Program-made: the position numbers and the translations under genes | Part shown: positions 20,147 through 53,620 of the stretch, piece by piece | Position numbering within the stretch: position 1 is the first letter of the stretch | How the letters are laid out: the number at the start of each line of letters is the position of its first letter | Sequence record: OQ870555.1 | DNA: 64,000 bases | Strand: one strand, 5' to 3' | From: Escherichia phage PECP14 | Notes under the pieces: model-generated | Databases searched by the model: none | What the model saw: only the letters and a program-made list of their open reading frames with translations | What the model was told of the DNA's origin: nothing

Positions 20147-20914
20147 TTATTCAGCAGCCGCAGCTTTTGCATCCAGTTTAGCACGCTTAGCGGCACCATC
20201 ATAGTCCTTAGCAACCAGACCACGACGAGACAGCATAGATTTAACACCGCGCTCAGACTTACCAGTTTTCTCAGCGATCTCAGCAACAGTCATGTTAGCC
20301 AGATCCAGACCTTCTAACAGATCTTCACGAGTTTTAGCACTTGAAGTTTCCTGTACCGGCATAGCAGCGATACGACCTTCACGAAGCAGACTCAGAGCTT
20401 TACCACGGATCTGCTTAATATTGCGACCGAAGTGAGCAGCGATAGCTTCAATAGTAGCACCAGCAACAACCTGATTAACGAAATCAGTTTCTTCGTCAGG
20501 AGTGAAGGAACGAACAGCAGCAGCTTTTTCGGTTGGCTTAACAGAAGCAGTCATTTCCAGACTCAGGATCTTACCCTGTACCTGCTTAGCACCGAACTGA
20601 CCACCAGCTACAGCAGCAGCGATTTCAGCGTAAGTATACTGACCAGCATGAGCGTTCAGGAAATCAACCAGTTCAGCTTCCTGCTCAGGAGTCCACGGGG
20701 ATTTCTGTACTTCGTTTGCTTTCTGTACTTCGAAACCTTCTTTACGCAGCTTAGAGCCAACAGAGCGAGCGGTAACGTCTTTGCCAGTCTCGGTAGCCAA
20801 TTCAGCAGCGATAGCAGCTACTTGTTCTTGAGAGATTACAGCAACACCCAGAGCAGTGGCTTTTGCTTTCAGAGACTCGGTTACACCTTCTACGTTCCAG
20901 TTCAGTTTAGACAT
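20147..20914 (-). CDS. DNA-binding protein with four tandem helix-turn-helix-like repeats
   Basis: 255 aa; about 60-aa units each containing ..(T/Y)..AEIA..G.......G...S..G... ; strong RBS GGAGAAAAATAATAATG. Confidence 0.55.
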   Translation of the reverse strand: MSKLNWNVEGVTESLKAKATALGVAVISQEQVAAIAAELATETGKDVTARSVGSKLRKEGFEVQKANEVQKSPWTPEQEAELVDFLNAHAGQYTYAEIAAAVAGGQFGAKQVQGKILSLEMTASVKPTEKAAAVRSFTPDEETDFVNQVVAGATIEAIAAHFGRNIKQIRGKALSLLREGRIAAMPVQETSSAKTREDLLEGLDLANMTVAEIAEKTGKSERGVKSMLSRRGLVAKDYDGAAKRAKLDAKAAAAE

Positions 20915-21686
20915 TATTATTTTTCTCCAATAGTTCTTTAATCGACAGGATTTCTATCCCATTCGTTTCGGCTTTCTTATAAGATGAGGAAGAACGTTTT
21001 GATTCATCCTCACAGATTAGGTATTTGACGTCTTTGGTAACGGACTTCTTAACCGTATATCCTAGACTTTCTAAATAGTTTGTTGCATCCGTTCGATTTG
21101 CAAAATCTTGCAAAGATCCGGTAATACAGACCGTGATTCCATTTGGCTGGGTAACTAAATCATCTGTAATGATGATATCCGCTTTAGCACCTCGAATACC
21201 TGTTGAGAATTTCCACGGTAATTCAATAACATCCTTGCCTTGTGGGGAATTTAGCCAGGTTTTGTAATTTTCTCCAGCCTTGCCGTCAGCCTTCACATCG
21301 TGGAAGCTAGTGCAATTTTGGGACAGTTTCTTTGCTGCAACCTCTCCAATAAGAGGAATTCCTAAAGAACCGAGAACTGAACCAAAGTCAGTGTCTCCGC
21401 GAACCTTAGTATTTAACTCGCTAATCAATTTAGCGGCAACCTTGCTACCCACAGCTCCGACCAAATCTTCTTCGGTCAGGTAAAACAGTTCTGAGATCTT
21501 AGTCAGCTCCAGCTTCTCAATAGTTTTCGGGCCAAAGCCCTTTAACTTCATTTTTGTGCAGAAGTTCTCGATTAACTTACTTGATTGCGCTGGACAGTTG
21601 GACTTATTCCTACAGAATAATTGCCCGTTGACAAGATCTAGCTTAGAACCACAAGAGGGACATTGTGTTGGAATTTCGATTTTCAT
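20907..21686 (-). CDS. NAD-dependent DNA ligase, C-terminal subunit (Zn finger, HhH, BRCT-like)
   Basis: 259 aa from ATG at 21686; C4 zinc motif CPSCGSKL...C..C; complements the adenylation subunit upstream. Confidence 0.8.
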   Translation of the reverse strand: MKIEIPTQCPSCGSKLDLVNGQLFCRNKSNCPAQSSKLIENFCTKMKLKGFGPKTIEKLELTKISELFYLTEEDLVGAVGSKVAAKLISELNTKVRGDTDFGSVLGSLGIPLIGEVAAKKLSQNCTSFHDVKADGKAGENYKTWLNSPQGKDVIELPWKFSTGIRGAKADIIITDDLVTQPNGITVCITGSLQDFANRTDATNYLESLGYTVKKSVTKDVKYLICEDESKRSSSSYKKAETNGIEILSIKELLEKNNNV

Positions 21687-21716
21687 CAAATTTCTTCCTT
21701 ATCAATTTATATAAAT

Positions 21717-21745
21717 ATTATAACAAGTATTTAAGCATTTAGCAA
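21717..21745 (-). promoter_or_regulatory. early promoter module (minus strand) upstream of ligase C-terminal subunit
   Basis: Minus strand reads TTGCTA-17 nt-TATAAT followed by ATAAATTGATAAGGAAG RBS leader. Confidence 0.6.
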
Positions 21746-21809
21746 CTACAATTTTAACTAACTTTGCTTACCCTCGCCATAACTTTCTATCCCTCAACTG
21801 AATGATAAT

Positions 21810-21838
21810 AGTATATACCTAAGCGGCGAAAATGTCAA
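21810..21838 (-). promoter_or_regulatory. near-consensus sigma70 promoter (TTGACA-17-TATACT), minus strand, in the ligase inter-subunit spacer
   Basis: Minus strand reads TATTGACATTTTCGCCGCTTAGGTATATACT. Confidence 0.55.
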
Positions 21839-21888
21839 TAACCACTTTATAATTCCGACATGGTAAACGGGTAGCAAAGGGTTACGAA

Positions 21889-22860
21889 TTAGTCGTATAC
21901 TCGCTCTACTATACAAGGGATTACACCACCAGCACGAATCACTCGAATCTGGCAACCGATCTCTAAATCGAGAGCGTTAATATAATCAACGTTATTAAGA
22001 GTTGCTTTAACGATTGTGGCATCATCAATAATCACCGGCTCGAAATAACCAACTGGAGTTACTTTACCAGAAGCCCCTACTTGCCATTCAACTTTAACAA
22101 GTGTGGTAATTTCGCCTTCTTCATCCTCTTTAATAGCAAATGCGCCACGAGGAAATTTATTAGTCCAACCTTCACGGAAGAATTTGTTGTTATCATTAAT
22201 ACGAACAACTTTACCATCTGTCGGAATCCATTTAAAGAAGGAACGAACATTAACAACTGTCAAGAAGTTCTCATTCTCTAGCCAAAGCATATCTTTTAAA
22301 TAGGCTTCTGTAATACCGACTGTTTCCGCTGAACACTGGATACCATATGCAACGAAGATTAAACCACCTTCACCAATACGTTGGATGAAATCATCGCTGT
22401 CTTTCAGGTTAATAGCACCTGAAGCGTAGTTACGTTTGTTCTCTACTTCTTTAGTAATGAGAACTTCACCAGTGATTTGAGTTGGAACTTTTTGGGAAAT
22501 AGTTTTAGGGATGTTCAGCATTTTAACATTATGCGTTACATCATTCCCTAGAATACCGTTACCACGAGTTAACGCTTGAACAAATTCACCATTAATATAT
22601 AATAGAGAAATCGCACAACCATCTAACTTATCAGTTTCAACCTGACCTAATGGATTGAATGGAGCTTTATCACCGCGACCGTAATAGACTTTCTGCAAAG
22701 AATACATACGATACAAATGAGGAATATCACCTTTCGGTCCGATTTCTTCCTCCAGTGGGAATCTTTTAATCAGACGATCATATTCTTCATCGGAAATAAG
22801 ACTCATTCCCTGGTAGTACGCTTCTTGACAACGTTTGATAAAGTCTTTTACATTATTCAT
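21889..22860 (-). CDS. NAD-dependent DNA ligase, N-terminal adenylation subunit
   Basis: 323 aa; adenylation lysine motif KLDG (VETDKLDGCAISLLY); OB-fold region. Confidence 0.8.
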   Translation of the reverse strand: MNNVKDFIKRCQEAYYQGMSLISDEEYDRLIKRFPLEEEIGPKGDIPHLYRMYSLQKVYYGRGDKAPFNPLGQVETDKLDGCAISLLYINGEFVQALTRGNGILGNDVTHNVKMLNIPKTISQKVPTQITGEVLITKEVENKRNYASGAINLKDSDDFIQRIGEGGLIFVAYGIQCSAETVGITEAYLKDMLWLENENFLTVVNVRSFFKWIPTDGKVVRINDNNKFFREGWTNKFPRGAFAIKEDEEGEITTLVKVEWQVGASGKVTPVGYFEPVIIDDATIVKATLNNVDYINALDLEIGCQIRVIRAGGVIPCIVERVYD

Positions 22861-28376: not shown

Positions 28377-28992
28377 AACAATACTCCTATGTTGGTTATT
28401 CGGATATCTTTCTTTAGGACTATTCAAAAGAATAGAACAACTATTACTACCATTTACACAAACATTAATCATCATCAAGCAGTATGAATAAGTTATCATA
28501 CCTCAGTGCTGCGCTCTCTTAACTCTTATCCAGATCAGAACCTAGGTCATTGGCCGCTAAGCCGATTCTGATTGCCCTCACTATCCTATTGGTAGGTGGC
28601 TACTGGACGTGTCACCATTCGCTGCTCTTTTCGTTCGCACCCCCATATAAAGCTCTGCCTATATAACGAGCTAAATATGCACGGTTTGGATTTACCTTTC
28701 CGAATTCAGGGTACGCAGATCACTTAATTGATAATTAACTAATGCAGTATAAACACTAGTAATAGTTAAAACAACCCTTAATGGGGCAGCCTAACTGTTC
28801 CGTATTGCGGATTGTAAACAAGAAAAATTAGCAAAATCAATTTTTACTAATGTCTCTCAATTCAATATAAATATTATATCAAGATTTTGAGCATCCTGCA
28901 AGTAAAATTTTTCCGAAGGTGCTATCAGTGTCTTTGAGCACAGAGAAAACCGAGTCAAAACGACTCGGTAATCAGGATTGAGCTAATGAAAA

Positions 28993-29388
28993 TCAATCAT
29001 CATTTAGGCCTGGGACATAGATTCCAATGCGATTTAATCGACCTTTAGCTTCTTCGAGAATATCTTCGGTGTACTCCCAAATATCATCTTCTACTTGCAA
29101 AAGATAAGGGGATTCACCAGTTTCGGGGTCACGTGTAATGGCTAAACCACGTGGATGGAATATAGAGAAGTTGAGGGCAACAATCAAGCCCATGCTGGAC
29201 AATTCATTCCAGTCAGCTTCCCAACCATCATCTTCATCTTCGTCCACAAAGACACCTACACTAGGGTCTGTTACAGAAGTAAACGGAAATGTTACACTAA
29301 CCTTGTCAACCCCCAACCAACGTGCAAGGAGCCCCTCAGCACGCTCTACCAAACTAGGATCTATCTGACGCCAAAATACTTGTTCCAT
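28993..29388 (-). CDS. hypothetical protein, tandem paralogue A
   Basis: 131 aa; RBS AGGAGG; shares ...G(L/M)(I/V)(V/F)ALN...R.G..(V/I)PGL... with the next gene. Confidence 0.55.
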   Translation of the reverse strand: MEQVFWRQIDPSLVERAEGLLARWLGVDKVSVTFPFTSVTDPSVGVFVDEDEDDGWEADWNELSSMGLIVALNFSIFHPRGLAITRDPETGESPYLLQVEDDIWEYTEDILEEAKGRLNRIGIYVPGLNDD

Positions 29389-29397
29389 TCTGCCTCC

Positions 29398-29826
29398 TTA
29401 AGCAGTTAAACCTGGGATCATATACCCGAAACGACGAAGTTTCTGAATCCCCTCATTTACTTCTTCGGGCGAGTATGACCAGCCCTCACGTTCATTTACC
29501 TGGAAAGCAGGAGCTTCACCAGTGCGATAATTTACAATAAGACGGTGATTTGCAGGCATAAACAGCTTATGGTTCAAGGCAAAAACCAGACCCATTTCAT
29601 CAAGTTCTTTCCAGTCTACAATCTCTTCTACTCCCTCGCCTAAATCCACACTAACTCCAATACACGGAGCTTCCTCTAGCGGGCCTTTAAAGGATAAGAA
29701 GATATCGTTATTCTCACACCAAATCTTGAGCAGATTGATGGTTTCATTATACATACCATTAGGGAGAGAGCGCCAGAAGTTGAGAAGCATAGGATTTACC
29801 TCTTTCATGAAAATATTATTGAACAT
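29398..29826 (-). CDS. hypothetical protein, tandem paralogue B
   Basis: 142 aa; same conserved blocks as the 131-aa neighbour. Confidence 0.55.
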   Translation of the reverse strand: MFNNIFMKEVNPMLLNFWRSLPNGMYNETINLLKIWCENNDIFLSFKGPLEEAPCIGVSVDLGEGVEEIVDWKELDEMGLVFALNHKLFMPANHRLIVNYRTGEAPAFQVNEREGWSYSPEEVNEGIQKLRRFGYMIPGLTA

Positions 29827-29828: not shown

Positions 29829-30344
29829 TTATACCTTAAGTTTCTGAAGAGCCTTACACATTTCAAGATCTGGACTAAATTCCAGCATATAGCTGATAGC
29901 ATTTAAATCTTGAAGGTTTATTCCAGTCCTGCCATTTACAATAACAGTAGGAAATTGGTACATCATAGCACCAGCATCATCTAGGACGCACCAATGCTTG
30001 AGCTTATGTTTTTCTACGAAACGTAAGACAGAATTACCCCGAGATAAACCACCTCCAGTAAAATCTGTTGTACCAAGAAAACGATCGATCAAACCGAGTC
30101 CGGTCATAATCTGAACGTTCTCCATTTCATTTCGTACAGAAAACCATGAAGATACCCCAACAATCATTATTGGGGATGGCTTAAGAAAGTTCTGAAAAGC
30201 CTGGAGTAATGGCTTGTAAACCCAATCACCACCAAAGAATAGCTTCTCACTATCTGGAGCATGATGGTGAGAGATGCTCGAATTGAGCACCCCATCAATA
30301 TCCAGGAAAATCACAGGAGTATTACTTATTTCCACCAGTAGCAT
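29829..30344 (-). CDS. HAD-superfamily phosphatase-like protein
   Basis: Motif VIFLDIDGVLN near the N-terminus; start uncertain (30368 or 30344). Confidence 0.55.
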   Translation of the reverse strand: MLLVEISNTPVIFLDIDGVLNSSISHHHAPDSEKLFFGGDWVYKPLLQAFQNFLKPSPIMIVGVSSWFSVRNEMENVQIMTGLGLIDRFLGTTDFTGGGLSRGNSVLRFVEKHKLKHWCVLDDAGAMMYQFPTVIVNGRTGINLQDLNAISYMLEFSPDLEMCKALQKLKV

Positions 30345-30507
30345 CCCACGTCCAGACTTTAACTTCATCAGTAAAAGGAACTGGAACCTTCAATTCACCT
30401 TTACCCCACATAACAGATAGGAACAGAGAATAAATGGTAATCATACCGATTAGGTTGACAAACCATACTAGACCTTTCCAGATACCCTTAAAAATCTTCT
30501 TCACCAT
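30322..30507 (-). CDS. small membrane protein
   Basis: Start moved to ATG at 30507 with RBS AAGGAGGGAG; one hydrophobic helix. Confidence 0.4.
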   Translation of the reverse strand: MVKKIFKGIWKGLVWFVNLIGMITIYSLFLSVMWGKGELKVPVPFTDEVKVWTWDATGGNK

Positions 30508-30670
30508 ATTCTCCCTCCTTAATAAGGAACTCTTTCCATTCTGCTGTATCCTCATAGATAACGCAGAAATCATCACTCTTCCATGAGAAGTCATCAGTAG
30601 CAAATTCGAAACGGTAGCACCAACTACCGTCTGGCCATACTAAAAGATCACACATGCTTTTCTGGGACAT
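30488..30670 (-). CDS. hypothetical small acidic protein
   Basis: Start moved to ATG at 30670 with RBS GGAGGG inside the end of the Sir2-like gene. Confidence 0.4.
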   Translation of the reverse strand: MSQKSMCDLLVWPDGSWCYRFEFATDDFSWKSDDFCVIYEDTAEWKEFLIKEGEYGEEDF

Positions 30671-31499
30671 AAATATTTCCCTCCATAAAAGCTTCAACTT
30701 GATCAATAAAGTGTTTATTACCAAAAACTTCGGCAGCTCCAGCACGCCATACAGTAACACCACGTTTCTCATACTCAAGCTGTTCGTCATAACGAACTTG
30801 TGGGTTAACAACCATCATCTTAGTTCCACGACATACAGCAGGAAATAGCTCCCAGTTGAAGTCGATTACTTGGTTGCTACAACCTACTACAATAACCATA
30901 TCATTGCTAGTAAGTGTATCAAACAGGTTAATCTGACCCATATACCACGGAGCCGTCTCACCAAAGAATGTTACGTTTGGTTTTACCCATTCGTAATCCT
31001 CAGGGGCAATCGCAGTATACCCAACATCTTCGATGATTTGGTTGCGACCCTGACGATAGATCACCTCTTTCAAGTACCCGTGAGCGTGAATGATTTCATC
31101 ACGAGGGATACCAGCACGTTCCAGAAGGTCATCAACGTTAGTAGTGAAGTTCTTCACGCTATCCTCACCATAACGCTGGAACCATTCTGCAATTCGCAGA
31201 TGGGCAATGTTAGGCTCAACAGTCTGTAATTCCTGACGACGCATGTTGTAGAACTCATGAGTCTTGAGATACAGATCGTTACCATCTTTATCAATGCCAG
31301 GGAAACGAGCACTGAAGTAGTTAGGATCATCTTCACCACAGAAGCGACGGAAGCCAGCTTCAAAGTTAGGCAAGCTACATACTTCCTCTAGATCGTACTC
31401 ATCCCACAAGGATTTCCCACTAGCAGTATCAGTACGGAAAGCACGAACACCACTATCTACACTCAAACCTGCACCACTAACAACGATTAGTCTACGCAT
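30648..31499 (-). CDS. Sir2-family (sirtuin-like) NAD-binding protein
   Basis: 283 aa; N-terminus VVSGAGLSVDSGVRAFR matches the sirtuin GAG(I/L)S..SGI..FR motif; later TTNVDDL...HG resembles the NID/HG block; no Zn-Cys cluster seen. Confidence 0.7.
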   Translation of the reverse strand: MRRLIVVSGAGLSVDSGVRAFRTDTASGKSLWDEYDLEEVCSLPNFEAGFRRFCGEDDPNYFSARFPGIDKDGNDLYLKTHEFYNMRRQELQTVEPNIAHLRIAEWFQRYGEDSVKNFTTNVDDLLERAGIPRDEIIHAHGYLKEVIYRQGRNQIIEDVGYTAIAPEDYEWVKPNVTFFGETAPWYMGQINLFDTLTSNDMVIVVGCSNQVIDFNWELFPAVCRGTKMMVVNPQVRYDEQLEYEKRGVTVWRAGAAEVFGNKHFIDQVEAFMEGNIYVPEKHV

Positions 31500-31693
31500 T
31501 ATACGATTCCTTGCTTGAATCCTTCGATGATATTTTGGAGCAGAATTGCTTCTTCTGGGCGAACCTTCTCTTGCTTAATAAGCATATCCAAACCAGCAAT
31601 ACAGGTAGCTACTCCAGCATTATACCCAGCATTCCACTGCTCCATGAGCATATTTTCTAAATTACTTTTTAGATTCTGATTCAAGAAGTCCAT
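31499..31693 (-). CDS. hypothetical small protein
   Basis: Start moved to ATG at 31693 with RBS GGAGG; stop overlaps the Sir2-like start (TAATG). Confidence 0.4.
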   Translation of the reverse strand: MDFLNQNLKSNLENMLMEQWNAGYNAGVATCIAGLDMLIKQEKVRPEEAILLQNIIEGFKQGIV

Positions 31694-31865
31694 AAAGTTT
31701 TTCCTCCAATTCCATAATACGATTTTCGTAAGAAGCACGCAGCTTCTCGATGGACAAAGCACGAACTGTAACTTCATCTGAATTGATCGCTAGCTGAGCT
31801 AGATCTTCTGTTTCCATACGTCCGTTGTAAATTAAGCGATATTTAAGATGTTTTACGTTTTTCAT
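31662..31865 (-). CDS. hypothetical small protein
   Basis: 67 aa ORF with ATG start. Confidence 0.4.
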   Translation of the reverse strand: MKNVKHLKYRLIYNGRMETEDLAQLAINSDEVTVRALSIEKLRASYENRIMELEEKLYGLLESESKK

Positions 31866-31874
31866 TCTTGTTCC

Positions 31875-32156
31875 TTAGTTCTGTACTGTAAATTCATTCT
31901 TATCACAGTGAGCATAATAATACCCATACATACGATAAATTTTCACAGCCTTAGTAGACCCCTTCGATTCTTCATAATCAATCCAGAGCCACTTGTCTTT
32001 ACCTACATAATGTACCCGAAACTTCTTAACTTTCTTATCATTCCATGTTGCAACAACACGACGATAATCAAATCCGCCCAACCAATCTAGAGCCTTACGT
32101 TCTTCACTAGGCTCTCCAAGATGGGAAACATCTACTTTTGGAAGCAATTCGCTCAT
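31875..32156 (-). CDS. hypothetical protein
   Basis: 93 aa ORF just downstream of nrdD on the minus strand; no radical-SAM CxxxCxxC motif, so not an NrdG activase. Confidence 0.5.
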   Translation of the reverse strand: MSELLPKVDVSHLGEPSEERKALDWLGGFDYRRVVATWNDKKVKKFRVHYVGKDKWLWIDYEESKGSTKAVKIYRMYGYYYAHCDKNEFTVQN

Positions 32157-32254
32157 AGCTTTCTCCTCTCAAATTTATAAATCAATTATACATAAGTTTT
32201 AGCTCGAAAGCAAATAAAATAAAAGCCAGGTCGACTAGCAACCTGGCTGATTCA

Positions 32255-35599: not shown

Positions 35600-37930
35600 A
35601 TGAGCCATCGCATCGAAAAAGTAATTAAACGTGACGGTACTGTTCAGGACTTTGCTCCTGAAAAACTCAATGATTGGGCCGCATGGGCATGTAAAGATAC
35701 TGACGTAAGTTGGTCTGCCGTAGTTATGGCTGCCCTGAAAAATCTACCCAAAGGTGTTGTAGACTCCGATACACTCCAAGATGTGTTAATTAAAGCCGCT
35801 GAAGGTCTTATCAAAGACAATCCAGCATATGATACTGTAGCAAAGGAATTACGTCTTGCGCAGATGCGTAAACGCCTATATGATTCCTTCGAACCACCTT
35901 CTCTGCGTTTCTTCCACGATCATATGGTTCGTGTTGGCGCTTGGGAAGACATGAGTGCATGGATTAGCGATGATCAGTTTGACGCTCTGAATCAAGTTAT
36001 TGACCATGATCGCGATCGTTTATTCACCAGTGGTGGACTGAAACAGTTCTTCGACAAGTATTCCCGTCGTAATATTGCAACTGGTGAAATTTATGAAACC
36101 CCGCAGTTTGCCTACATGGGTATGGCAATGGCGATGTTATCTCAACCTAACTGGACAATTCTAGATGCAATCGACCTCTACAATGCAATGTCGCTCCACA
36201 AAATCAACGTTCCTACGCCGCCACTGGTTGGCCTGCGCTCTAGTGACCGTGGATTTGCTAGTTGCTGCCTCGTGGATTCCACTGACACTCTGGATTCAAT
36301 CGACACAGCCGAGCACATCGTCTTCAAAATGGTCGCAGCCAGAGCGGGAATCGGGTATCATCTTGAAAGCCGATCAATTGCTGATCCGGTGCGAAATGGG
36401 GCATTCCCGCATTCCGGAAAACTGCCATATTATCGACACATTGACCGTTCAGTAAAAGCTAACACTCAGCAAACCCGTGGCGGTTCTGCTACTGTGTCTT
36501 ATCCATACTTCGATCCTGAAATCATTCAGTTGATGCAGGTTAAACAGCAACGTGCTACAGACGAGAATAAAATCGATAAAATGGATTACTCTCTGAGCTT
36601 TAACAACCTTCTGTTAAAACGTTACCTGAAAAACGAAGATATTACGCTAATGTCCTACTTCTACGCACCAGAAGTTCATGAAGCGTTTTATGGCGAAGAT
36701 GAGGCTAAGTTTGAAGAAATCTACATGGCAGCGGAGAAACGTGTGGCATCTCTTACAAAGATCGACCACGAAGGGAAAACAATTCCAGCAGCTCCTAGAA
36801 TCTCTGCAAAAGAAATCCTAGATACTTGGTTACGCATCCGTATGGAAACAGGGCGTATGTACGCTCATCATATTGGTGAATCTAACCGTCATGGTAACTT
36901 CCTTGACCCGATTCGTATGACCAACCTTTGTGTAGAGATTACTCAGCCTACTCGTCCATTCCAGCACATTACGGAACTGTACAAAACTGCGGATCAATTA
37001 GATGATATGCGTCCAGAAGATATTGGTGAAGTATCTCTGTGTAACTTAGGTGGTGTTGTACTTGGACGCATGGAATCTCTGGCTGAGTGGGAAAAAACTT
37101 GCTACATCCTACTGAAATTCGTTGATACAATTATTGAAATTCAGGATTATCCGTTCCCAACTATGGAATATACAGCTAAGAAACGTCGTAATGTTGGTAT
37201 TGGCCTGATGAACGCAGCAGGTGCAATGGCAGCAGAAGGTCTGGCTTATGAAGGTATTGAAGCCCGTAACTGGATTCACCGTGAGGCTGAAAAACTGTCT
37301 TACTTCCTGCATAAAGCCTCTGTACGCCTAGCTAAAGAACAGGGTGCATGTGAGTGGTTTGATCGTACTAAACCATCTAAAGGAATTCTGGTAATCGACA
37401 CGTACAAGAAAACTGTTGATGAACTGGTATCCGTAGGTCTAGAAATGGATTGGGAGTCTCTGCGTGCAGATATTCTGAAATATGGTATGCGTAATTCTGT
37501 TCTGACTGCTCAGATGCCAGGAGAAAGTTCTTCTGTTCTGCTAGGAGTTACTAACTCTATCGAACCGCCTCGTAAGATTGTATCTATCAAGGGTAGTGCA
37601 GTGAATAAAGTAATTGCAATTGCTCCAGGTGCAACCGATTGGGAAACGTTAATGAGCTATAAACTGGCTTATGATGTAGATCGTATCGAGTGGATCAAAT
37701 GGGTAGCAACTATGCAGAAATTCTTCAGTCAGTCTATCAGTACGAATATGTACTATGACTACACCAAGTTTGATAATGAAATCATTCCTGGCCCAGTAGT
37801 AGTTCGTGATTTCATGACTGCTGTTAAGTATGGGTGGAAAACTTTCTACTATGCAAACTTCAATACCGCAAATGGTGGAGGTGCTGGAGAAGAAGCAGCC
37901 GGTTGTGCATCCGGCGGTTGTACTATTTAA
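35600..37930 (+). CDS. nrdA: ribonucleoside-diphosphate reductase alpha subunit
   Basis: ATP-cone N-terminus (MSHRIEKVIKRDGTVQDF), catalytic region with NLCVEI; ATG at 35600 with RBS AAAGGAAAG. Confidence 0.9.
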   Translation: MSHRIEKVIKRDGTVQDFAPEKLNDWAAWACKDTDVSWSAVVMAALKNLPKGVVDSDTLQDVLIKAAEGLIKDNPAYDTVAKELRLAQMRKRLYDSFEPPSLRFFHDHMVRVGAWEDMSAWISDDQFDALNQVIDHDRDRLFTSGGLKQFFDKYSRRNIATGEIYETPQFAYMGMAMAMLSQPNWTILDAIDLYNAMSLHKINVPTPPLVGLRSSDRGFASCCLVDSTDTLDSIDTAEHIVFKMVAARAGIGYHLESRSIADPVRNGAFPHSGKLPYYRHIDRSVKANTQQTRGGSATVSYPYFDPEIIQLMQVKQQRATDENKIDKMDYSLSFNNLLLKRYLKNEDITLMSYFYAPEVHEAFYGEDEAKFEEIYMAAEKRVASLTKIDHEGKTIPAAPRISAKEILDTWLRIRMETGRMYAHHIGESNRHGNFLDPIRMTNLCVEITQPTRPFQHITELYKTADQLDDMRPEDIGEVSLCNLGGVVLGRMESLAEWEKTCYILLKFVDTIIEIQDYPFPTMEYTAKKRRNVGIGLMNAAGAMAAEGLAYEGIEARNWIHREAEKLSYFLHKASVRLAKEQGACEWFDRTKPSKGILVIDTYKKTVDELVSVGLEMDWESLRADILKYGMRNSVLTAQMPGESSSVLLGVTNSIEPPRKIVSIKGSAVNKVIAIAPGATDWETLMSYKLAYDVDRIEWIKWVATMQKFFSQSISTNMYYDYTKFDNEIIPGPVVVRDFMTAVKYGWKTFYYANFNTANGGGAGEEAAGCASGGCTI

Positions 37931-48057: not shown

Positions 48058-48132
48058 CGGGGTGTAGTCTAAGGGATAGGCAGGAGTCTTCTAAATTCCT
48101 TTATGCAGGTTCGAATCCTGTCACCTCGGCCA
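48058..48132 (+). tRNA. tRNA-Arg (anticodon UCU)
   Basis: Hand-folded: acceptor CGGGGTG/CACCTCG, anticodon arm GGAGT-CTTCTAA-ATTCC, T-arm GCAGG-TTCGAAT-CCTGT, encoded CCA. Confidence 0.75.
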
Positions 48133-48158
48133 ATTTTATTAACTGCTAGGAAAATAAA

Positions 48159-48359
48159 GTGAAAACACGATATATAGTAAAAGTAGTAGGTGAACATTCA
48201 CAAGTAAATACCACCGATGTTACAGCGCTAGCATTTGAAGTAGTCTCCGGTATAGTCATATTTCATAACGGAGATATCAAAGCTCCTGAATTTGCTGTGG
48301 ATGCTAGCCTGTTTATTTCTGCAACTAAAGTAACTGTAGTAGCTAACTCTTCTAAATAA
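48159..48359 (+). CDS. hypothetical small beta-rich protein upstream of the SPFH gene (GTG start)
   Basis: 66 aa ORF ending 11 nt before the SPFH gene. Confidence 0.45.
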   Translation: MKTRYIVKVVGEHSQVNTTDVTALAFEVVSGIVIFHNGDIKAPEFAVDASLFISATKVTVVANSSK

Positions 48360-48370
48360 TAAGGAAATAT

Positions 48371-49315
48371 ATGTTTACTAAAAACACTAAAGAACTGACT
48401 TCCGATCAAAAAGTAATTCGTACTATTAAACGTTGGGGTGTTGGTGCTGTAGTTGGTCTTGGCGCTCTTATTCTGGCTCTCAATTCCTATACAGTTGTTC
48501 AGGACGGTACGGTTAAAACTCAGACTTTCCTGGGTAAAGTTAGTCCTAATCCTGTATTGCCGGGGTTCCATATTGTCAACCCATTCGCCTCTTTTGATAC
48601 TTTTAGTACGAAAGATATTTCTATGAAACTGGATAAACTTCAGGTTCCTAGCCAGGATAAGTTTAAGTCTACAGTTGACATTACCGTTATGTTGCAGTTT
48701 GATGGTGCTAAAGCTCCTATGAACCGTGTTAACGCAGGTACTCAGGATCAAGCTCTGAACAAGTACGTTGAAGAGAAGATGCTGTCTACGATTCGTGAGT
48801 TTGGTAAGTCTGTACCAAAAGCACAAGATCTGTTCGACGCTAAGATTCAGGCTCAACTGCAAACCGCTATTCAGCAAGAAGTAGAAGAGTATGCGCGTCC
48901 TTATGGTTACACCGTTAAGCAAGTATTCCTTCAGGATATTACTCTGCCACCGGTAATCATGGAACAGGTACAGAACACCAAAGTTCGTGAAGAACAAGTT
49001 AACGCTGCAAAAGCTGAACTGGCTCGTGTTGAACAAGAAGCACAGCAGAAAGTTAAGCAAGCTGAGGCAGATCGTTCCGCTCGTGAAAACATGGCAGTAG
49101 CTAACGAACGTGACGCAGATGCTAAACTGTACGCAGCTAAGAAAGAAGCTGAAGCTAACGCCGCTCTGCAACGTACCATTACTCCTGAAATGATTCGTTG
49201 GAAGCAGCTGGAAGTTGAAATGCTTCGTGCTGAAAAATACCAAGGGGGTGTACCACAGACTGTTGTCGGTACTGGCTACGATGGTCAAATGATCATGGAT
49301 ATGCGTAACAAGTAA
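48371..49315 (+). CDS. SPFH/band-7 (stomatin/prohibitin-like) membrane protein
   Basis: 314 aa; N-terminal TM helix (WGVGAVVGLGALILAL), SPFH body, C-terminal Ala/Glu/Gln-rich coiled coil; RBS AAGGAAAT. Confidence 0.75.
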   Translation: MFTKNTKELTSDQKVIRTIKRWGVGAVVGLGALILALNSYTVVQDGTVKTQTFLGKVSPNPVLPGFHIVNPFASFDTFSTKDISMKLDKLQVPSQDKFKSTVDITVMLQFDGAKAPMNRVNAGTQDQALNKYVEEKMLSTIREFGKSVPKAQDLFDAKIQAQLQTAIQQEVEEYARPYGYTVKQVFLQDITLPPVIMEQVQNTKVREEQVNAAKAELARVEQEAQQKVKQAEADRSARENMAVANERDADAKLYAAKKEAEANAALQRTITPEMIRWKQLEVEMLRAEKYQGGVPQTVVGTGYDGQMIMDMRNK

Positions 49316-49338
49316 TAGTTACACGTAATCTTCGAACC

Positions 49339-49375
49339 AAGCCCGCGTTTCCTTCGAGAGCGCGGGCTTTTCTGT
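49339..49375 (+). terminator. rho-independent terminator after the SPFH gene
   Basis: AAGCCCGCG-(13-nt loop)-CGCGGGCTT followed by TTCTGTATTT. Confidence 0.7.
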
Positions 49376-49385
49376 ATTTAAGGCA

Positions 49386-49430
49386 AAAGAAAAAGCCCCT
49401 TACCTTTCGGCAGGGGCTTTTGTTTTTTGG
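49386..49430. terminator. bidirectional terminator between convergent plus- and minus-strand genes
   Basis: AAAAAGCCCCT-(loop)-AGGGGCTTTTGTTTTTT, A-run upstream and T-run downstream. Confidence 0.7.
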
Positions 49431-49635
49431 TTTAGAACCATACTCTCTTGTTACAACAACCACTCATACGGGAGACCAATCTTGACTGAAAATCTACTCT
49501 AGGGGGCAGGATAAGAGTAGGCTTAAAGGCAAACGGATTGAACACCGGTATTTGTGTAAACATTGCTGGAGAGCAACAACGTGCTACAGGTATTGGGCAG
49601 CACGAAACAGATTTTCTGCAACACATAATTCCTCC

Positions 49636-50052
49636 TTAGGAGTTATTACCGCCATTTTGAGCTTTTGCAACTTGGCTTTGGCAGAAGCTATTAAACTTAC
49701 CCATAAGTGCTACAAGCTGTTTCCCATCCTCTGTCTTTGCGAAGTCTTCGAAAAGGGCTAGTACTGCCTGTCCTTCCGCAGAAACCTGCGGTTGTTGGGT
49801 TTGTTGCTGAACTTGCTGCTGAGGCACCTGTTGCTGCATTTGTTGAGGCATTTGCGACTGCCCGCTCATTTGCTGCATCATTTGCATAGGACTCACACTT
49901 CCAGGGTTTTGCTGGAGTTGCTGCTGCATCTGTTGCGCTTCTGCTAAACGCTGTTGCAACTGTTGTAGGTAAGGGTTATCCAGACCCGGAATGGGCTGCT
50001 GAGAGCCCATTGGTTGATTAAATCCGTTGTTCACAAAACCATATTTACTCAT
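49636..50052 (-). CDS. Gln-rich low-complexity protein
   Basis: 138 aa, about 35 percent Gln; RBS GGGGAGGAG before the ATG. Confidence 0.5.
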   Translation of the reverse strand: MSKYGFVNNGFNQPMGSQQPIPGLDNPYLQQLQQRLAEAQQMQQQLQQNPGSVSPMQMMQQMSGQSQMPQQMQQQVPQQQVQQQTQQPQVSAEGQAVLALFEDFAKTEDGKQLVALMGKFNSFCQSQVAKAQNGGNNS

Positions 50053-50074
50053 AATGGGCTCCTCCCCTTAAAGA

Positions 50075-51076
50075 TTAGGCTGGTACTTTAGCCTGTAGAG
50101 CTGCTAGAGTCTGAGTAATTGCACCCAGGCTTACAGCGATTTGATTGATTACCTGACCGTTTGCACCGCTACCTGCAGCGATTGCTTCACGCAGACGGCA
50201 TTCATTCAGTTCGTCTTGGATACGCGCAGTAGTTACACCAGCAATCGCAGTCTGAAGTTCGCAGCAGCACTCAGCAAGCTGACGTTCGATAGCGTTCTGG
50301 TTAGCACACATCTGAGCCTGAACAGCGGCAAACTGGTTGTTAGTCTGAAGAGACTGCTGGAAAGCAATCTGGGCAGAGTCAAACTTGTCTTGTGCACGAG
50401 CGATCTGGTTAGCAGCGAAAGCTTGATCCATCTGGCGAGAAAGATCGAACTGACCCTGAATAACGTTACGAGTTTCCTGACAGATCTGGTTGGACAGGTT
50501 AGCACCAGTACCATACACAGTAGTCAGAATCTGTTGAGTGCTAGAAGCTTGAGCAGCACCTACACCATTAACAGCGCTCAGAACAGCACCAGTACCTTGA
50601 TTCGCTTCGGTACGAGCAGTGTTGATTGCAGCTAGAATACTTGCAGTATCCTGGTTAGATAGGATAGCATCCACAGCAGTTCCCTCAGCGGCAACACCAG
50701 CACCACGTCCGAAACCACCGAAACCACCGAATCCGCCTGTTAATAGAGCACCAATCAGGATAGCTCCGAATAGACCCATACCTTCACCGCCGAAAGCACC
50801 ATTTGCTACTGCTGGGTAACCACCCATCAGACCTGGGAAGCCGCTAGTGAATACGTTTACTGGTTCTTGCATTTTATGTTTCCTATGTTTATGACAGCCC
50901 TCATGGTCGTCATCTTCATCATCTTCATCGTCATCATCGTGATCACGATGTTTCTTTTCGTAGGCCTTGACCTTCTCCCACTTATGTTTGTCTGATTCCT
51001 CATGACGTCTCAGTTCTGCTGCGACTTCACTGACGGTCTCAGGTTTCTTAGTTGCTTCTTCTGTCATTTTTGACAC
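50075..51076 (-). CDS. acidic His/Asp-rich protein with glycine-zipper membrane segment and Gln/Ala-rich C-terminal region
   Basis: 333 aa; HRDHDDDDEDDEDDDHEGCHKHRKHK; LFGAILIGALLTGGFGGFGGFG; C-terminal ECCCELQ and CRLRE; RBS AGGAGGTG. Confidence 0.55.
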   Translation of the reverse strand: MSKMTEEATKKPETVSEVAAELRRHEESDKHKWEKVKAYEKKHRDHDDDDEDDEDDDHEGCHKHRKHKMQEPVNVFTSGFPGLMGGYPAVANGAFGGEGMGLFGAILIGALLTGGFGGFGGFGRGAGVAAEGTAVDAILSNQDTASILAAINTARTEANQGTGAVLSAVNGVGAAQASSTQQILTTVYGTGANLSNQICQETRNVIQGQFDLSRQMDQAFAANQIARAQDKFDSAQIAFQQSLQTNNQFAAVQAQMCANQNAIERQLAECCCELQTAIAGVTTARIQDELNECRLREAIAAGSGANGQVINQIAVSLGAITQTLAALQAKVPA

Positions 51077-51273
51077 CTCCTAGTATATAGAAAATGTGTG
51101 TCTCTTTGATCACTCATCTATAACATATACTTTACACTACCCCAGCGAAAATGTCAAGGGGTCTTTAAAAATTGCCCCCGGATTTTTAGTGGGATAACAA
51201 TTTCTGGACCTCACCACTCACCTGCTACCCTTAAGTGCCCTGCGATTTTCCACTAAAAAGTTTAAAAATTCGA

Positions 51274-51302
51274 TTGCTTGAATGCTAAATTCTCTGTATA
51301 AT
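51274..51302 (+). promoter_or_regulatory. early promoter module upstream of the NadR-like gene
   Basis: TTGCTT-17 nt-TATAAT, then ..ATAAATTTGAGAGAGGAATCAAAT-ATG. Confidence 0.65.
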
Positions 51303-51332
51303 ATATTTATAAATTTGAGAGAGGAATCAAAT

Positions 51333-52388: not shown

Positions 52389-52389
52389 T

Positions 52390-53067
52390 ATGACTAACTA
52401 TCTTGTAAATGACTTTAAAAACTGGAAACCTTTGGAATATCTGTGGCTGTTTATAGCAGTCGCCTTTATTAGTTTAGCTAACTATAATGGTACAGCTCTA
52501 GATTGGGCTACTGCAATAACCAACGTGGTTTGTGTTATTCTGGTTGCAAAAGGACGTGTTTCCAACTATATTTGGGGCTTAGTTGGTGTTCTTACCTATG
52601 GTATTACAGCTTTAAACGCAGATCTTTATGGTAACGCTGCACTAAACCTGCTATACTACGTTCCTATGCAGTTTTATGGAATGTACTTATGGCATAAAAA
52701 TAAGCCAAGTAATCTGCCAGATGTTCCAACTAAGGTTCTGACTAAAGCCCAAGCTCTGCTGACTCTAGGGATTCTAGCAGTAGCCACGTTAGGGTATGGT
52801 AGTTTCTTAGCTACTACGGCTGATCCATTCCCAATGTTGGATGCATTTACTGCGGTAGGTAGTGTGATCGCTATGTGGCTTATGGTTAAGCAGTATGCCG
52901 AGCAGTGGCTGATCTGGATTGCTATTAACATTGGTACTGTATATATTTGGCTTGTAACTGCCCAGTCTACGGGTGCTTCTTATGCAATCCTAGCAATGTG
53001 GCTGGTGTTCTTAGGTAACTCTATTATGGGAGCCTATAAAGGCTACTTTGTAAGAGTTAACAAATAA
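52390..53067 (+). CDS. pnuC: nicotinamide riboside transporter (PnuC-like)
   Basis: About 225 aa with multiple TM helices and a WxxxxP-type region; start overlaps the nadR stop (TAATATG). Confidence 0.7.
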   Translation: MTNYLVNDFKNWKPLEYLWLFIAVAFISLANYNGTALDWATAITNVVCVILVAKGRVSNYIWGLVGVLTYGITALNADLYGNAALNLLYYVPMQFYGMYLWHKNKPSNLPDVPTKVLTKAQALLTLGILAVATLGYGSFLATTADPFPMLDAFTAVGSVIAMWLMVKQYAEQWLIWIAINIGTVYIWLVTAQSTGASYAILAMWLVFLGNSIMGAYKGYFVRVNK

Positions 53068-53074
53068 AGTAGTT

Positions 53075-53100
53075 ATAGCCCTCTAAGCGAGGGCTATTAT
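53075..53100 (+). terminator. rho-independent terminator after pnuC
   Basis: ATAGCCCTC-TAAGC-GAGGGCTAT followed by TATAC. Confidence 0.65.
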
Positions 53101-53114
53101 ACAGAAATTTTCAC

Positions 53115-53615: not shown

Positions 53616-53620
53616 AATTT

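What the first reader, a model, noticed from the sequence alone, without database searches (positions are those of the whole stretch)
30648..31499. Sir2-family protein in the replication module
The N-terminal GAGLS..SGV.AFR motif and later HG block fit the sirtuin Rossmann fold, with no zinc-ribbon cysteines. Sir2 domains act as NAD+-consuming deacylases, ADP-ribosyltransferases or NADases. In a phage that also encodes NadR-PnuC and a NAD-dependent ligase, this suggests coordinated NAD+ handling.
Basis: partly seen in the sequence, partly recalled or inferred. Interest (0 to 1): 0.5.

Follow-up and report, generated by a model that had tools for sequence, protein, structure and literature searches.

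The report
Zinc-less Sir2 enzyme of T5-like phages
This is the long-annotated "Sir2-like" gene of T5-type phages: an apparently active NAD+-using enzyme from a phage-only, zinc-less branch of the sirtuin family, whose real substrate has never been tested.

Summary
Window 30648-31499 (minus strand) encodes a 283-aa Sir2-family protein (Pfam E=1e-21; PHROG 2162 E=1e-107). It keeps the NAD+-binding motifs, the catalytic His140 and the Asn/Asp pair. It has no zinc-ribbon cysteines. The window is a T5-like phage (Tequintavirus), and the gene is 99.9% identical to genes already annotated "Sir2-like protein". It belongs to a clade found in about 980 phage records and almost absent from 185,579 bacterial and archaeal genomes. 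By sequence and fold it is closest to the CobB/SIRT5-type deacylases, not to the defence NADases.

It lies in a tightly packed unit with an RNA-repair-type HAD phosphatase (HAD_SAK_2). In rV5/PVP-SE1-like phages its orthologue directly follows a phosphoesterase, RNA ligase and kinase trio. This reproduces a 2022 published prediction of a Tpt1/KptA-like role in RNA repair.

That reading is my leading hypothesis, at about 0.35. Protein deacylation (about 0.3) and another counter-defence role are not excluded.

NadR-PnuC (now called NARP3) and the NAD+ ligase are present, but they lie about 8-20 kb away in other units. T5 itself keeps Sir2 without NARP3 at the syntenic site.

The gene is already known and dispensable in at least one lab phage. 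Its function is untested.

The parts
30648..31499 (-). Sir2-family CDS, 283 aa, ATG start. Its A at 31499 is shared with the TAA stop of the upstream small ORF.
31434..31475 (-). Residues 9-22, GAGLSVDSGVRAFR: Rossmann P-loop and cofactor-binding loop. G9, A10, G11, S13, S16, G17, F21 and R22 are invariant in the clade.
31272..31361 (-). Residues 47-76: a variable insertion in the helical small domain. It is present in this allele and in Phapecoctavirus-type relatives, and absent in T5, Erwinia phage KEY and PVP-SE1-type relatives.
31236..31250 (-). Residues 84-88, YNMRR. This is the class III sirtuin YxxR motif, which binds the acidic acyl group in CobB and SIRT5 (my own knowledge). Y84, R87 and R88 are invariant.
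31125..31145 (-). Residues 119-125, TTNVDDL, corresponding to CobB TQNIDNL. Catalytic-pocket Asn121 and Asp123 are kept. The Gln is replaced by Thr throughout the clade.
31077..31088 (-). Residues 138-141, HAHG. His140 aligns with the catalytic His of CobB.
30984..31076 (-). Residues 142-172. This is the position of the sirtuin zinc ribbon. It is predicted as strands 141-150 and 153-158, with a third strand at 172-176, at block-mean pLDDT 93. It contains no cysteine.
29829..30368 (-). HAD phosphatase of the HAD_SAK_2 family ('Swiss Army Knife RNA repair' HAD). It has D23-x-D25 and a DD motif. It lies two small ORFs downstream of Sir2.
29398..29826 (-). DUF7415 protein (first of two paralogues), same unit.
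28993..29388 (-). DUF7415 protein (second paralogue), last gene of the unit.
30322..30670 (-). Two overlapping small ORFs between Sir2 and HAD: 30488-30670, and 30322-30507, whose sequence looks hydrophobic (possibly membrane; not tested). PHROGs 5116 and 11166, function unknown. They are part of the segment that differs from T5.
31499..32156 (-). Three small ORFs upstream of Sir2 in the same unit: 31875-32156, 31662-31865 and 31499-31693. PHROGs 7953, 5236 and 5827, function unknown.
32224..32248 (-). Terminator-like hairpin after nrdD (10-bp stem, T-run). Upstream boundary of the Sir2 unit.
28949..28969 (-). Terminator-like hairpin after the second DUF7415 gene. Downstream boundary of the unit.

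Best explanation
Shown: the gene encodes a structurally intact member of the sirtuin family. It keeps every residue needed to bind NAD+ and break its nicotinamide-ribose bond. It belongs to a clade found almost only in virulent phages. That clade derives from CobB/SIRT5-type sirtuins and has lost the zinc ligands. The gene lies in a tightly packed unit, bounded by terminator-like hairpins, with a HAD_SAK_2 phosphatase and two DUF7415 genes.

Inferred mechanism: ordinary sirtuin chemistry. An oxygen nucleophile on the substrate attacks C1'' of NAD+ and nicotinamide leaves. His140 then activates the ribose 2''-OH to resolve the adduct.

Inferred substrate (the least secure step): a phosphate on damaged RNA rather than an acyl-lysine. 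On this reading the enzyme is a sirtuin-fold analogue of RNA 2'-phosphotransferase (Tpt1/KptA). It would strip 2'-phosphates and release ADP-ribose cyclic phosphate. The neighbouring HAD would remove a remaining terminal phosphate from the RNA or from the ADP-ribose by-product. The cassette would then be an accessory repair and counter-defence module against host nucleases that cut tRNA or mRNA. This phage carries 28 tRNA genes.
For: Catalytic competence:
- GAGxS, F21/R22, N121/D123, H138/H140/G141, FFGE, G-C-S and N232 are invariant in 22 diverse clade members. They are also kept across the 26 Sir2 lineages aligned.

Context:
- The neighbour at 29829-30368 is HAD_SAK_2 (PF18143, E=4e-19).
- A HAD lies within 3 kb of Sir2 in 30 of 32 T5-like loci. 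It stays adjacent in Erwinia phage KEY even though the gene order is inverted there.
- In five other Sir2 lineages (PVP-SE1- and rV5-like phages) Sir2 lies beside or within a few genes of Metallophos, an Rnl1-like RNA ligase (PF09511) and an AAA_33 kinase. In four of them it lies downstream on the same strand. In rV5 itself the ligase and Sir2 are about 370 nt apart.
- In Serratia phage BF, Sir2 lies between a 2H phosphoesterase and a Nudix-cREC protein, near PIN-PhoH.
- Phosphatase and 2H neighbours fit a phosphorylated substrate or by-product, and deacylation needs neither. This is my inference.
- The invariant YxxR motif binds an anionic group in CobB and SIRT5 (my own knowledge).

Literature: Iyer et al. 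2022 (PMC9503650, section 3.7.3) made this prediction for this clade. They named the T5-like phage SP15 with its HAD neighbour.
Against: - No biochemistry exists for any member of the clade.
- T5-like phages appear to lack the Rnl1-type ligase: it is in 718 phage records, but only 15 are Salmonella phages. No polynucleotide kinase was looked for in the window. A post-ligation 2'-phosphate therefore has no obvious source in this phage.
- The ligase-kinase-phosphoesterase trio occurs mostly without Sir2: 11 of 79 ligase loci have Sir2.
- No KptA homologue takes the Sir2 position in the other loci, so the expected non-orthologous displacement was not seen.
- Klebsiella T5-like phages have Sir2 without the HAD. 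In Phapecoctavirus-type phages Sir2 lies about 30 kb from the ligase.
- The 2H neighbour in phage BF passes the Pfam Acb1 (anti-CBASS) model. Those neighbourhoods also hold NAD+ rebuilding genes, so they may be general counter-defence islands rather than RNA-repair operons.
- The clade is acidic: median pI 5.0, and net charge -16 for this protein, against pI 9.4 for E. coli KptA. This is weak evidence, because the co-located RNA ligase is also acidic.
- Sequence and fold are closest to true deacylases.
Confidence: 0.35

Rival explanations
1. It is what its annotation says: an NAD+-dependent protein lysine deacylase of the CobB/SIRT5 type, possibly a desuccinylase or demalonylase as well as a deacetylase. 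It would be made early in infection to strip acyl groups from host or phage proteins, tuning metabolism, transcription or translation for the phage.
For: - The best sequence matches are E. coli CobB (E=1.3e-16), Sir2Af and SIRT5.
- The peptide-binding 'FFGE' strand and the class III YxxR motif are invariant.
- The best NCBIfam hits are all deacylase models.
- The acidic surface charge would suit basic, lysine-rich substrates (inference).
Against: - The four zinc-ribbon cysteines are absent from the whole clade. Every characterised sirtuin deacylase has them (my own knowledge).
- All seven NCBIfam CobB-type models score far below their cutoffs, for example 87.8 against 243 bits.
- No acetyltransferase or other acylation-related gene appeared among the neighbours in any lineage. 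The recurring neighbours are phosphatases, phosphoesterases, an RNA ligase and a kinase.
- The host already has CobB.
- The clade is essentially phage-only and carries its own invariant substitutions: Thr for the Gln of QNID, and Cys41.
Confidence: 0.3
2. It is a counter-defence enzyme acting on something other than RNA ends or acyl-lysine. It might ADP-ribosylate a host immune protein. Or, together with the HAD phosphatase, it might convert phosphorylated NAD+-breakdown or ADP-ribose-based immune molecules into forms the phage can tolerate or recycle.
For: - In three phage groups the orthologue lies among genes with known or family-level counter-defence roles. One group has a gene with the Acb2/Tad1 hairpin domain 4 kb upstream (L002). 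A second has a PRPP-synthetase-like plus Nampt-like pair, which the literature identifies as NARP1 Adps/Namat, about 5 kb away in PVP-SE1-like phages. The third, phage BF, has Nampt, NMNAT-Nudix and an Acb1-family 2H protein beside Sir2.
- The body of the gene is a mosaic hot spot: 52% protein identity to T5 Sir2 inside flanks whose proteins are mostly 89-98% identical. This is as expected for a gene under conflict.
- The gene is dispensable: DT57C carries a defective copy.
- Accessory phosphatases that feed NAD+ rebuilding have precedent in Adpp (bioRxiv 10.64898/2026.01.28.702374).
Against: - No specific target can be named.
- PADLOC has no match, and no anti-defence paper found here mentions this protein.
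- Neighbourhood in phage early regions is partly inherited synteny.
- T5-like phages carry NARP3, which starts from nicotinamide riboside, not ADP-ribose. A feed-in role for the HAD is therefore not obvious in this phage.
Confidence: 0.15
3. One reading: Sir2 is one arm of a coordinated phage NAD+ economy together with NadR-PnuC (import and synthesis) and the NAD+-dependent ligase (consumption).
For: - All three are in the window.
- NARP3 does raise NAD+ (PMC13464706).
- In other phages Sir2 lies beside Nampt and NMNAT genes, which could recycle its nicotinamide product.
Against: - The genes are about 8-20 kb apart, in separate units. NadR-PnuC is on the opposite strand.
- The T5 stretches searched (about 35 kb of the st0 record and 15 kb of the wild-type record, including the syntenic site) keep Sir2 and the ligase but hold no NadR or PnuC.
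- The tblastn counts are consistent with this, although overlap between the hit lists was not computed. About 434 records hold the T5-type HAD at 80% identity or more, and only about 206 hold this NadR at 80% or more.
- This reading names no substrate, so it is a context rather than a mechanism.
Confidence: 0.1
4. It is a plain NADase that depletes host NAD+, like the SIR2 effectors of Thoeris, DSR or SIR2-HerA. It could, for example, exclude competing phages.
For: - The zinc ribbon is lost, as in the defence SIR2 domains (my own knowledge).
- The NAD+-binding residues are intact.
Against: - There is no PADLOC match.
- There is no sensor or partner domain.
- The same phage invests in NAD+ import and synthesis and depends on an NAD+ ligase.
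- The substrate-side motifs (YxxR, FFGE) are invariant, which is not expected of a simple hydrolase.
Confidence: 0.05

Closest known systems
E. coli CobB and human SIRT5 (class III sirtuin deacylases)
   Different: There are no zinc-binding cysteines. Thr replaces the Gln of QNID. The helical domain carries a 30-residue insertion in this allele. Scores fall far below the NCBIfam CobB cutoffs. The clade is confined to phages.
The 'distinct clade of viral sirtuins' predicted to act in RNA repair (Iyer, Burroughs, Anantharaman and Aravind 2022, PMC9503650, section 3.7.3)
   Same: This is that clade. It is a T5-like phage Sir2 with a HAD_SAK_2 neighbour, their type 3 neighbourhood. Its orthologues sit with RNA ligase, kinase, MazG and calcineurin-like genes (type 2) and with 2H, Nudix-cREC and PIN genes (type 1). 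I reproduced all three.
   Different: Nothing differs in kind. I add caveats the paper does not give: the T5-like phages lack the ligase, most ligase modules lack Sir2, no KptA displacement was found, and counter-defence and NAD+ rebuilding genes share these neighbourhoods.
Tpt1/KptA RNA 2'-phosphotransferase
   Same: Only the proposed chemistry is shared: an NAD+-dependent attack by an oxyanion on C1'', nicotinamide release, and then 2''-OH transesterification (PMC11417386 abstract). The association with RNA-healing genes is also similar.
   Different: The fold is unrelated and there is no sequence similarity. KptA is basic (pI 9.4) whereas this protein is acidic (pI 4.8). The resemblance is functional analogy and remains untested.
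Defence SIR2 NADases (ThsA, DSR1/2, SIR2-HerA, Avs5)
   Same: They share the SIR2 Rossmann core and lack a zinc ribbon (the latter from my own knowledge).
SirTM, the macrodomain-linked ADP-ribosylating sirtuins
   Different: No Macro-domain hit was found among the window genes flanking Sir2 that were scanned against Pfam. In the ligase loci, Macro genes occur only where Sir2 is absent, and they belong to NARP1 operons. Sequence identity is only 14%.

Membership tests
SIR2/sirtuin superfamily (Pfam PF02146) | Profile match above the curated gathering score | tested here: met
   77.9 bits against a cutoff of 24, E=1.2e-21; PHROG 2162 E=1.4e-107
SIR2/sirtuin superfamily (Pfam PF02146) | Rossmann fold with the GAGxS loop and the sirtuin mode of NAD+ binding | tested here: met
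SIR2/sirtuin superfamily (Pfam PF02146) | Catalytic His in the HG motif, and Asn/Asp of the (Q)NxD motif | tested here: met
   H140-G141 aligns with CobB HG. N121 and D123 align with CobB N and D. All are invariant in the clade
Canonical sirtuin protein deacylases (CobB / class III) | Zinc ribbon with four cysteines (CxxC...CxxC) in the small domain | tested here: not met
   No cysteine in residues 142-172 of this protein or of any main-clade member. Distant viral lineages 9 and 13 do have CxxC...CxxC
Canonical sirtuin protein deacylases (CobB / class III) | Class III YxxR motif for acidic acyl groups | tested here: met
   Y84-N-M-R87 aligns with CobB Y-N-A-R and is invariant
Canonical sirtuin protein deacylases (CobB / class III) | Score above the NCBIfam equivalog or subfamily cutoff | tested here: not met
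   Best score is 87.8 bits against a cutoff of 243. All seven models fall far below their cutoffs
Canonical sirtuin protein deacylases (CobB / class III) | NAD+-dependent removal of acyl groups from lysine | not testable with these tools
   Needs an enzyme assay
Viral RNA-repair-associated sirtuin clade (Iyer et al. 2022) | Phage-encoded clade distinct from cellular sirtuins | tested here: met
   978 phage records. Clade-specific motifs found one weak hit (36% identity, on a metagenome-assembled contig) in 185,579 species genomes
Viral RNA-repair-associated sirtuin clade (Iyer et al. 2022) | Conserved neighbourhood with RNA-end-processing genes and no adjacent Macro gene | tested here: met
   HAD_SAK_2 lies two small ORFs downstream and within 3 kb in 30 of 32 T5-like loci. 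Orthologues lie next to the Rnl1-kinase-Metallophos trio. No Macro-domain hit among the window genes flanking Sir2 that were scanned against Pfam
Viral RNA-repair-associated sirtuin clade (Iyer et al. 2022) | Actual activity on RNA 2'-phosphate or RNA ends | not testable with these tools
   This is a prediction only. No experimental paper was found
Tpt1/KptA family (considered as a functional analogue only) | Sequence or fold homology to KptA | tested here: not met
   The protein is a sirtuin by every profile and fold search. phmmer with E. coli KptA found no homologue in the 79 ligase loci
Defence-type SIR2 NADases | Match to a defence-system SIR2 model, or fusion or operon with a sensor or partner (SLOG, HerA, STAND, pAgo) | tested here: not met

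The most novel reading that the evidence does not exclude
The sirtuin fold has been recruited in phages for a chemistry never demonstrated for it. On this reading the enzyme uses NAD+ to take phosphate groups off RNA 2'-phosphates or ends, or off phosphorylated ADP-ribose-type products of host immunity. It would act as a zinc-less, non-homologous replacement for Tpt1/KptA, working with a HAD phosphatase in a phage repair and counter-defence cassette. The sharp allele swap inside the gene would then reflect an arms race with host defences.
Probability: 0.35. Interest if true: 0.7.

Novelty: already known. Interest (0 to 1): 0.3.

Why it matters
As a finding it is ordinary. The gene is 99.9% identical to GenBank entries labelled "Sir2-like protein". 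T5's copy is annotated in the T5 records, and the clade and its RNA-repair reading were published in 2022.

What stays open is the substrate of a conserved enzyme found in about 980 phage records, including model and therapy-candidate phages (T5-, rV5- and PVP-SE1-like). If it proves to be a Tpt1 analogue, or another NAD+-dependent enzyme that removes damage or modifications, three things would follow. It would add a new activity to the sirtuin fold. It would add a new consumer to the phage-host struggle over NAD+. And it would explain why these phages pair it with phosphatases and NAD+ rebuilding pathways. If it is a plain deacylase, it is a modest auxiliary gene.

Tried and rejected
1. PADLOC scan for defence-type SIR2 models: no hit.

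2. Test for non-orthologous displacement. I fetched 79 phage loci holding the Rnl1-like ligase and searched them for Sir2 and for E. coli KptA homologues. Sir2 was in 11 and KptA in none, so the expected 'KptA where Sir2 is absent' pattern did not appear.

3. Macro-domain genes looked mutually exclusive with Sir2 in those loci (14 against 0). The literature shows they are Adpp, the accessory phosphatase of NARP1 operons. The exclusivity therefore says nothing about Sir2.

4. Overall charge as a discriminator. The clade is acidic and KptA is basic, but the co-located RNA ligase and kinase are acidic too, so the test is inconclusive.

5. PDB sequence searches for the HAD and for DUF7415 gave only noise.

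6. Promoter scan. There is no strong sigma-70 consensus between the nrdD terminator and Sir2, only 9-of-12 matches, and the region has no more such sites than shuffled sequence. The T5 record annotates a putative promoter directly upstream of its Sir2.

7. Literature searches for any experiment on a T5-like or other phage Sir2 of this clade found only genome annotations and the 2022 survey.

I could not measure distances between Y84/R87 and His140 or map surface charge.

Only the segments that one search prints are relied on.

Caveat: my neighbourhood statistics use a crude ORF caller and single-linkage BLAST clusters.
Full report
**1. The observation**

Window 30648-31499 holds, on the minus strand, an ATG-started ORF of 283 aa. 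Its N-terminus reads MRRLIVVSGAGLSVDSGVRAFR, and residues 138-141 read HAHG. The four cysteines (41, 54, 207, 223) form no CxxC pair. None lies between the HG motif and KPNV, where sirtuins carry their zinc ribbon.

The protein matches Pfam SIR2 at E=1.2e-21, 77.9 bits against a cutoff of 24. It matches PHROG 2162 'Sir2 (NAD-dependent deacetylase)' over its full length at E=1.4e-107. Seven NCBIfam CobB-type models hit, but all far below their cutoffs; the best is 87.8 against 243 bits. PADLOC has no match.

**2. Where the window comes from, and what is already annotated**

Megablast finds the gene in 223 phage records. Identity reaches 99.9% (Klebsiella phage 150049, E. coli phage NG_S8) and 99.8% (Salmonella phages Stitch and Seabear, Escherichia phage DaisyDussoix/Bas31). 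Most carry the label 'Sir2-like protein'. DaisyDussoix is a Tequintavirus of the family Demerecviridae. Its map matches the window: PhoH, nrdD, three small ORFs, Sir2, small ORFs, three hypothetical genes, primase, and so on to the split NAD+ ligase. The T5 record annotates its own copy (T5p100) as a SIR2-family deacetylase with a putative promoter directly upstream. The gene is therefore already known as an annotation.

**3. Catalytic anatomy**

The best solved relative by sequence is E. coli CobB (1s5p, E=1.3e-16), followed by Sir2Af and SIRT5. I aligned 22 diverse homologues with 55-79% identity to the query. The invariant positions are:
- G9, A10, G11 and S13;
- S16, G17, F21 and R22;
- Y84, R87 and R88;
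- P96, N97, A99 and H100;
- T119, T120, N121, V122 and D123;
- E127, R128 and G130;
- H138, H140 and G141;
- K173, P174, F178, F179 and E181;
- G206 and S208;
- N232.

Against CobB these correspond to the P-loop, the cofactor loop, the YxxR motif of class III sirtuins, PNxAH, (Q)NxD, the catalytic HG, FGE, GxS and the adenine-ribose Asn. Two differences mark the clade. Thr replaces the Gln of QNID. No member has a cysteine in the zinc-ribbon stretch. More distant viral sirtuins (lineages 9 and 13) do have CxxC...CxxC.

The reading is a catalytically competent NAD+-cleaving sirtuin, derived from the CobB/SIRT5 branch, that has dispensed with zinc.

**4. Distribution**

tblastn finds homologues in 978 of 50,697 phage records. 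These are T5-like, rV5-like, Phapecoctavirus-like, PVP-SE1-like, Erwinia, Vibrio and jumbo phages. A scan of one genome for each of 185,579 bacterial and archaeal species with clade-specific motifs found a single weak hit, at 36% identity on a metagenome-assembled contig. The clade is effectively confined to virulent phages.

**5. The local cassette**

On the minus strand a terminator-like hairpin follows nrdD (32248-32224). Another follows the second DUF7415 gene (28969-28949). Between them the genes are packed with overlaps or gaps of a few bases:
- three small ORFs;
- Sir2, whose ATG overlaps the preceding TAA;
- two small ORFs;
- a 179-aa HAD phosphatase (29829-30368);
- two DUF7415 paralogues.

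The HAD passes Pfam HAD_SAK_2, 'HAD domain in Swiss Army Knife RNA repair proteins', at E=4.4e-19. It has the DxD nucleophile motif. The small ORFs and DUF7415 have no known function.

**6. Neighbourhoods elsewhere**

I fetched 66 IMG/VR loci with relatives. I called ORFs, clustered all proteins, and grouped the Sir2 proteins into 26 lineages at 75% identity.

*T5-like lineages.* A HAD is within 3 kb of Sir2 in 30 of 32 T5-like loci. In Erwinia phage KEY the order is inverted (HAD, a 118-aa ORF, Sir2) yet the two stay adjacent. Klebsiella T5-like phages have Sir2 and DUF7415 but no HAD.

*PVP-SE1- and rV5-like lineages.* In five lineages Sir2 lies beside or within a few genes of a calcineurin-like phosphoesterase, an Rnl1-like RNA ligase (PF09511, E=2.9e-13) and an AAA_33 P-loop kinase. 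In four of them it lies downstream on the same strand. It precedes an ATP-dependent DNA ligase and a MazG-like protein. In rV5 itself the ligase ends about 370 nt before Sir2.

*Serratia phage BF.* The order is NMNAT-Nudix, Nampt, a 2H protein, Sir2, Nudix-cREC, PIN-PhoH.

These are the three neighbourhood types described by Iyer, Burroughs, Anantharaman and Aravind in 2022. They proposed that this viral sirtuin clade removes RNA 2'-phosphates the way KptA/Tpt1 does, and they named the T5-like phage SP15 with its HAD neighbour (PMC9503650).

**7. Tests of the RNA-repair reading**

I fetched 79 loci holding the Rnl1-like ligase. The phosphoesterase-ligase-kinase trio is widespread: the kinase is in 54 loci and the phosphoesterase in 53. 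Sir2 accompanies it in only 11 loci. No homologue of E. coli KptA occurs in any of them. Sir2 is therefore an accessory of that module, not a core part, and it does not visibly replace KptA.

The same loci often carry a PRPP-synthetase-like plus Nampt-like pair (30-34 loci) and sometimes a Macro gene (14 loci, all without Sir2). The literature identifies these as NARP1 (Adps and Namat) and its accessory ADP-ribose-1''-phosphate phosphatase Adpp.

The 2H protein beside Sir2 in phage BF passes the Pfam model for the anti-CBASS enzyme Acb1. A gene with the Acb2/Tad1 hairpin domain lies 4 kb from Sir2 in a Phapecoctavirus-like contig. These regions are therefore also counter-defence islands.

The Rnl1-like ligase is in 718 phage records, but only 15 are Salmonella phages. 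This suggests the T5-like phages lack it. The window's phage then has no evident ligase to create a junction 2'-phosphate. No polynucleotide kinase was looked for in the window.

Finally, the clade is acidic (median pI 5.0; this protein has net charge -16), while KptA is basic (pI 9.4). The co-located ligase and kinase are acidic too, so this is weak evidence.

**8.

The window does encode a NadR-like enzyme (CTP_transf_like plus AAA_28) and PnuC (PF04973, E=3e-43) at 51282-53067. It also encodes a split NAD+ ligase. A 2026 paper shows that this pair from the T5-like phage Bas30 imports nicotinamide riboside and rebuilds NAD+ against Sir2-HerA defence (NARP3; PMC13464706). That paper does not mention the phage's own Sir2.

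The genes are about 20 kb from Sir2 and on the other strand. T5 has Sir2 at the same locus. It has no NadR or PnuC in the T5 stretches held (record positions 18-53 kb of the st0 strain and 30-45 kb of wild type). Only the first 18 codons of nadR survive, 100% identical, next to T5.076.

The tblastn counts point the same way, although overlap between the hit lists was not computed. About 434 records hold the T5-type HAD at 80% identity or more. About 206 hold this NadR at 80% or more. Sir2 does not depend on NARP3. Its recurrent proximity to NAD+ rebuilding genes in other phages keeps a looser link plausible.

**9. Dispensability and mosaicism**

Phage DT57C carries only a 90-codon remnant annotated 'Sir2-like (defective)'. 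It fuses a C-terminal piece of Sir2 to the C-terminus of the HAD. Both genes can therefore be lost in a viable lab phage.

Between this window and T5 the flanking proteins are mostly 89-98% identical: nrdD 89, HAD 91, primase 94, PhoH 98, RNR subunits 95-98. The two DUF7415 proteins are lower, at 73% and 68%. Sir2 is 52% identical, which is less than its identity to rV5-, KEY- or Klebsiella-phage copies (57-63%).

At the DNA level, identity is 85% through Sir2 codon 41. It falls to 68% from 31271 to 30840. It is undetectable from 30840 to 30334, where the HAD gene resumes at 85%. The body of Sir2 and the two small ORFs after it have been exchanged as a block.

**10. Verdict**

The finding is real and correctly classified, but already known. 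The step from 'active sirtuin' to a substrate is inference.

| Reading | Weight |
|---|---|
| Tpt1-like RNA-end repair with the HAD | about 0.35 |
| Protein deacylation | about 0.30 |
| Another counter-defence role | about 0.15 |
| Plain NADase | about 0.05 |

The repair reading leads because phosphatase and phosphoesterase neighbours recur in independent phage groups, which deacylation does not explain. Its weakness is that this phage has no ligase. Protein deacylation has the best sequence and fold match but lacks zinc and any supporting context. A short set of enzyme assays would settle the question.

Noticed in passing
window 30334-31375 (minus strand), compared with T5 locus L034: There is a block exchange inside a conserved backbone. 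Sir2 codons 1-41 and the flanks are 85-89% identical to T5 at the DNA level. The rest of Sir2 is 68% or unalignable, and the two downstream small ORFs have no T5 counterpart. Two Sir2 alleles, 52% identical as proteins, therefore occupy one locus among T5-like phages.
   Followed up: partly
L071 (Escherichia phage DT57C, NC_027356.1 46493-46765): A natural 'defective sir2' of 90 codons fuses a Sir2 C-terminal fragment to the C-terminus of the HAD. This shows that both genes are dispensable in a lab phage.
   Followed up: partly
window 29829-30368; PHROG 18062: PHROG 18062 is labelled 'Sir2 (NAD-dependent deacetylase)' but matches residues 88-179 of the HAD phosphatase (E=1.6e-54). It probably derives from the DT57C fusion. 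This seems to explain why several RefSeq T5-like records label the HAD gene as Sir2.
   Followed up: partly
L075 7796-7849 (T5 NC_005859 about 37795-37848), against window 51282-51335: T5 retains only the first 18 codons of nadR, 100% identical, next to the Toprim gene T5.076. The NadR-PnuC (NARP3) cassette has been lost or replaced at that site in T5.
   Followed up: partly
loci L077-L155 (for example L089, L092, L103, L110): A recurrent phage supermodule combines Metallophos, an Rnl1-like RNA ligase and an AAA_33 kinase. Directly beside them is a PRPP-synthetase-like plus Nampt-like pair (NARP1-type), often with a Macro (Adpp-type) gene and an ATP-dependent DNA ligase. I found no explanation for why an RNA-repair trio and NAD+ reconstitution are so often adjacent.
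   Followed up: partly
L002 3942-4211 (Phapecoctavirus-like contig), 4 kb upstream of its Sir2: A gene with the Acb2/Tad1 hairpin domain (anti-CBASS/anti-Thoeris sponge family) lies in the same-strand gene block as Sir2. A calcineurin-like phosphoesterase lies 6 kb upstream.
   Followed up: no
L074 5281-5727 (Serratia phage BF gp110, annotated 'RNA ligase'): The 148-aa 2H protein next to Sir2 passes the Pfam Acb1 (anti-CBASS) model at 56 bits. It only weakly matches the 2'-5' RNA ligase family. Its annotation as an RNA ligase is probably wrong.
   Followed up: no
window 28993-29826: Two tandem DUF7415 paralogues close the Sir2-HAD unit. They persist next to Sir2 in Klebsiella T5-like phages that lack the HAD. 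The T5 record notes homologues in P2-like phages (L-413C, phiCTX) and in Aeromonas phage Aeh1, where a HAD homologue is also noted. Their function is unknown.
   Followed up: no
window 48058-62698: There are 28 tRNA genes on the plus strand, one at 48058 and the rest in a cluster from 53522. The cluster starts immediately after NadR-PnuC.
   Followed up: no
window 20907-22860: The NAD+-dependent DNA ligase is split into two ORFs. The adenylation and OB domains are at 21889-22860. The HhH and BRCT domains are at 20907-21689, after a gap of about 200 nt. The same split is annotated in DaisyDussoix.
   Followed up: no
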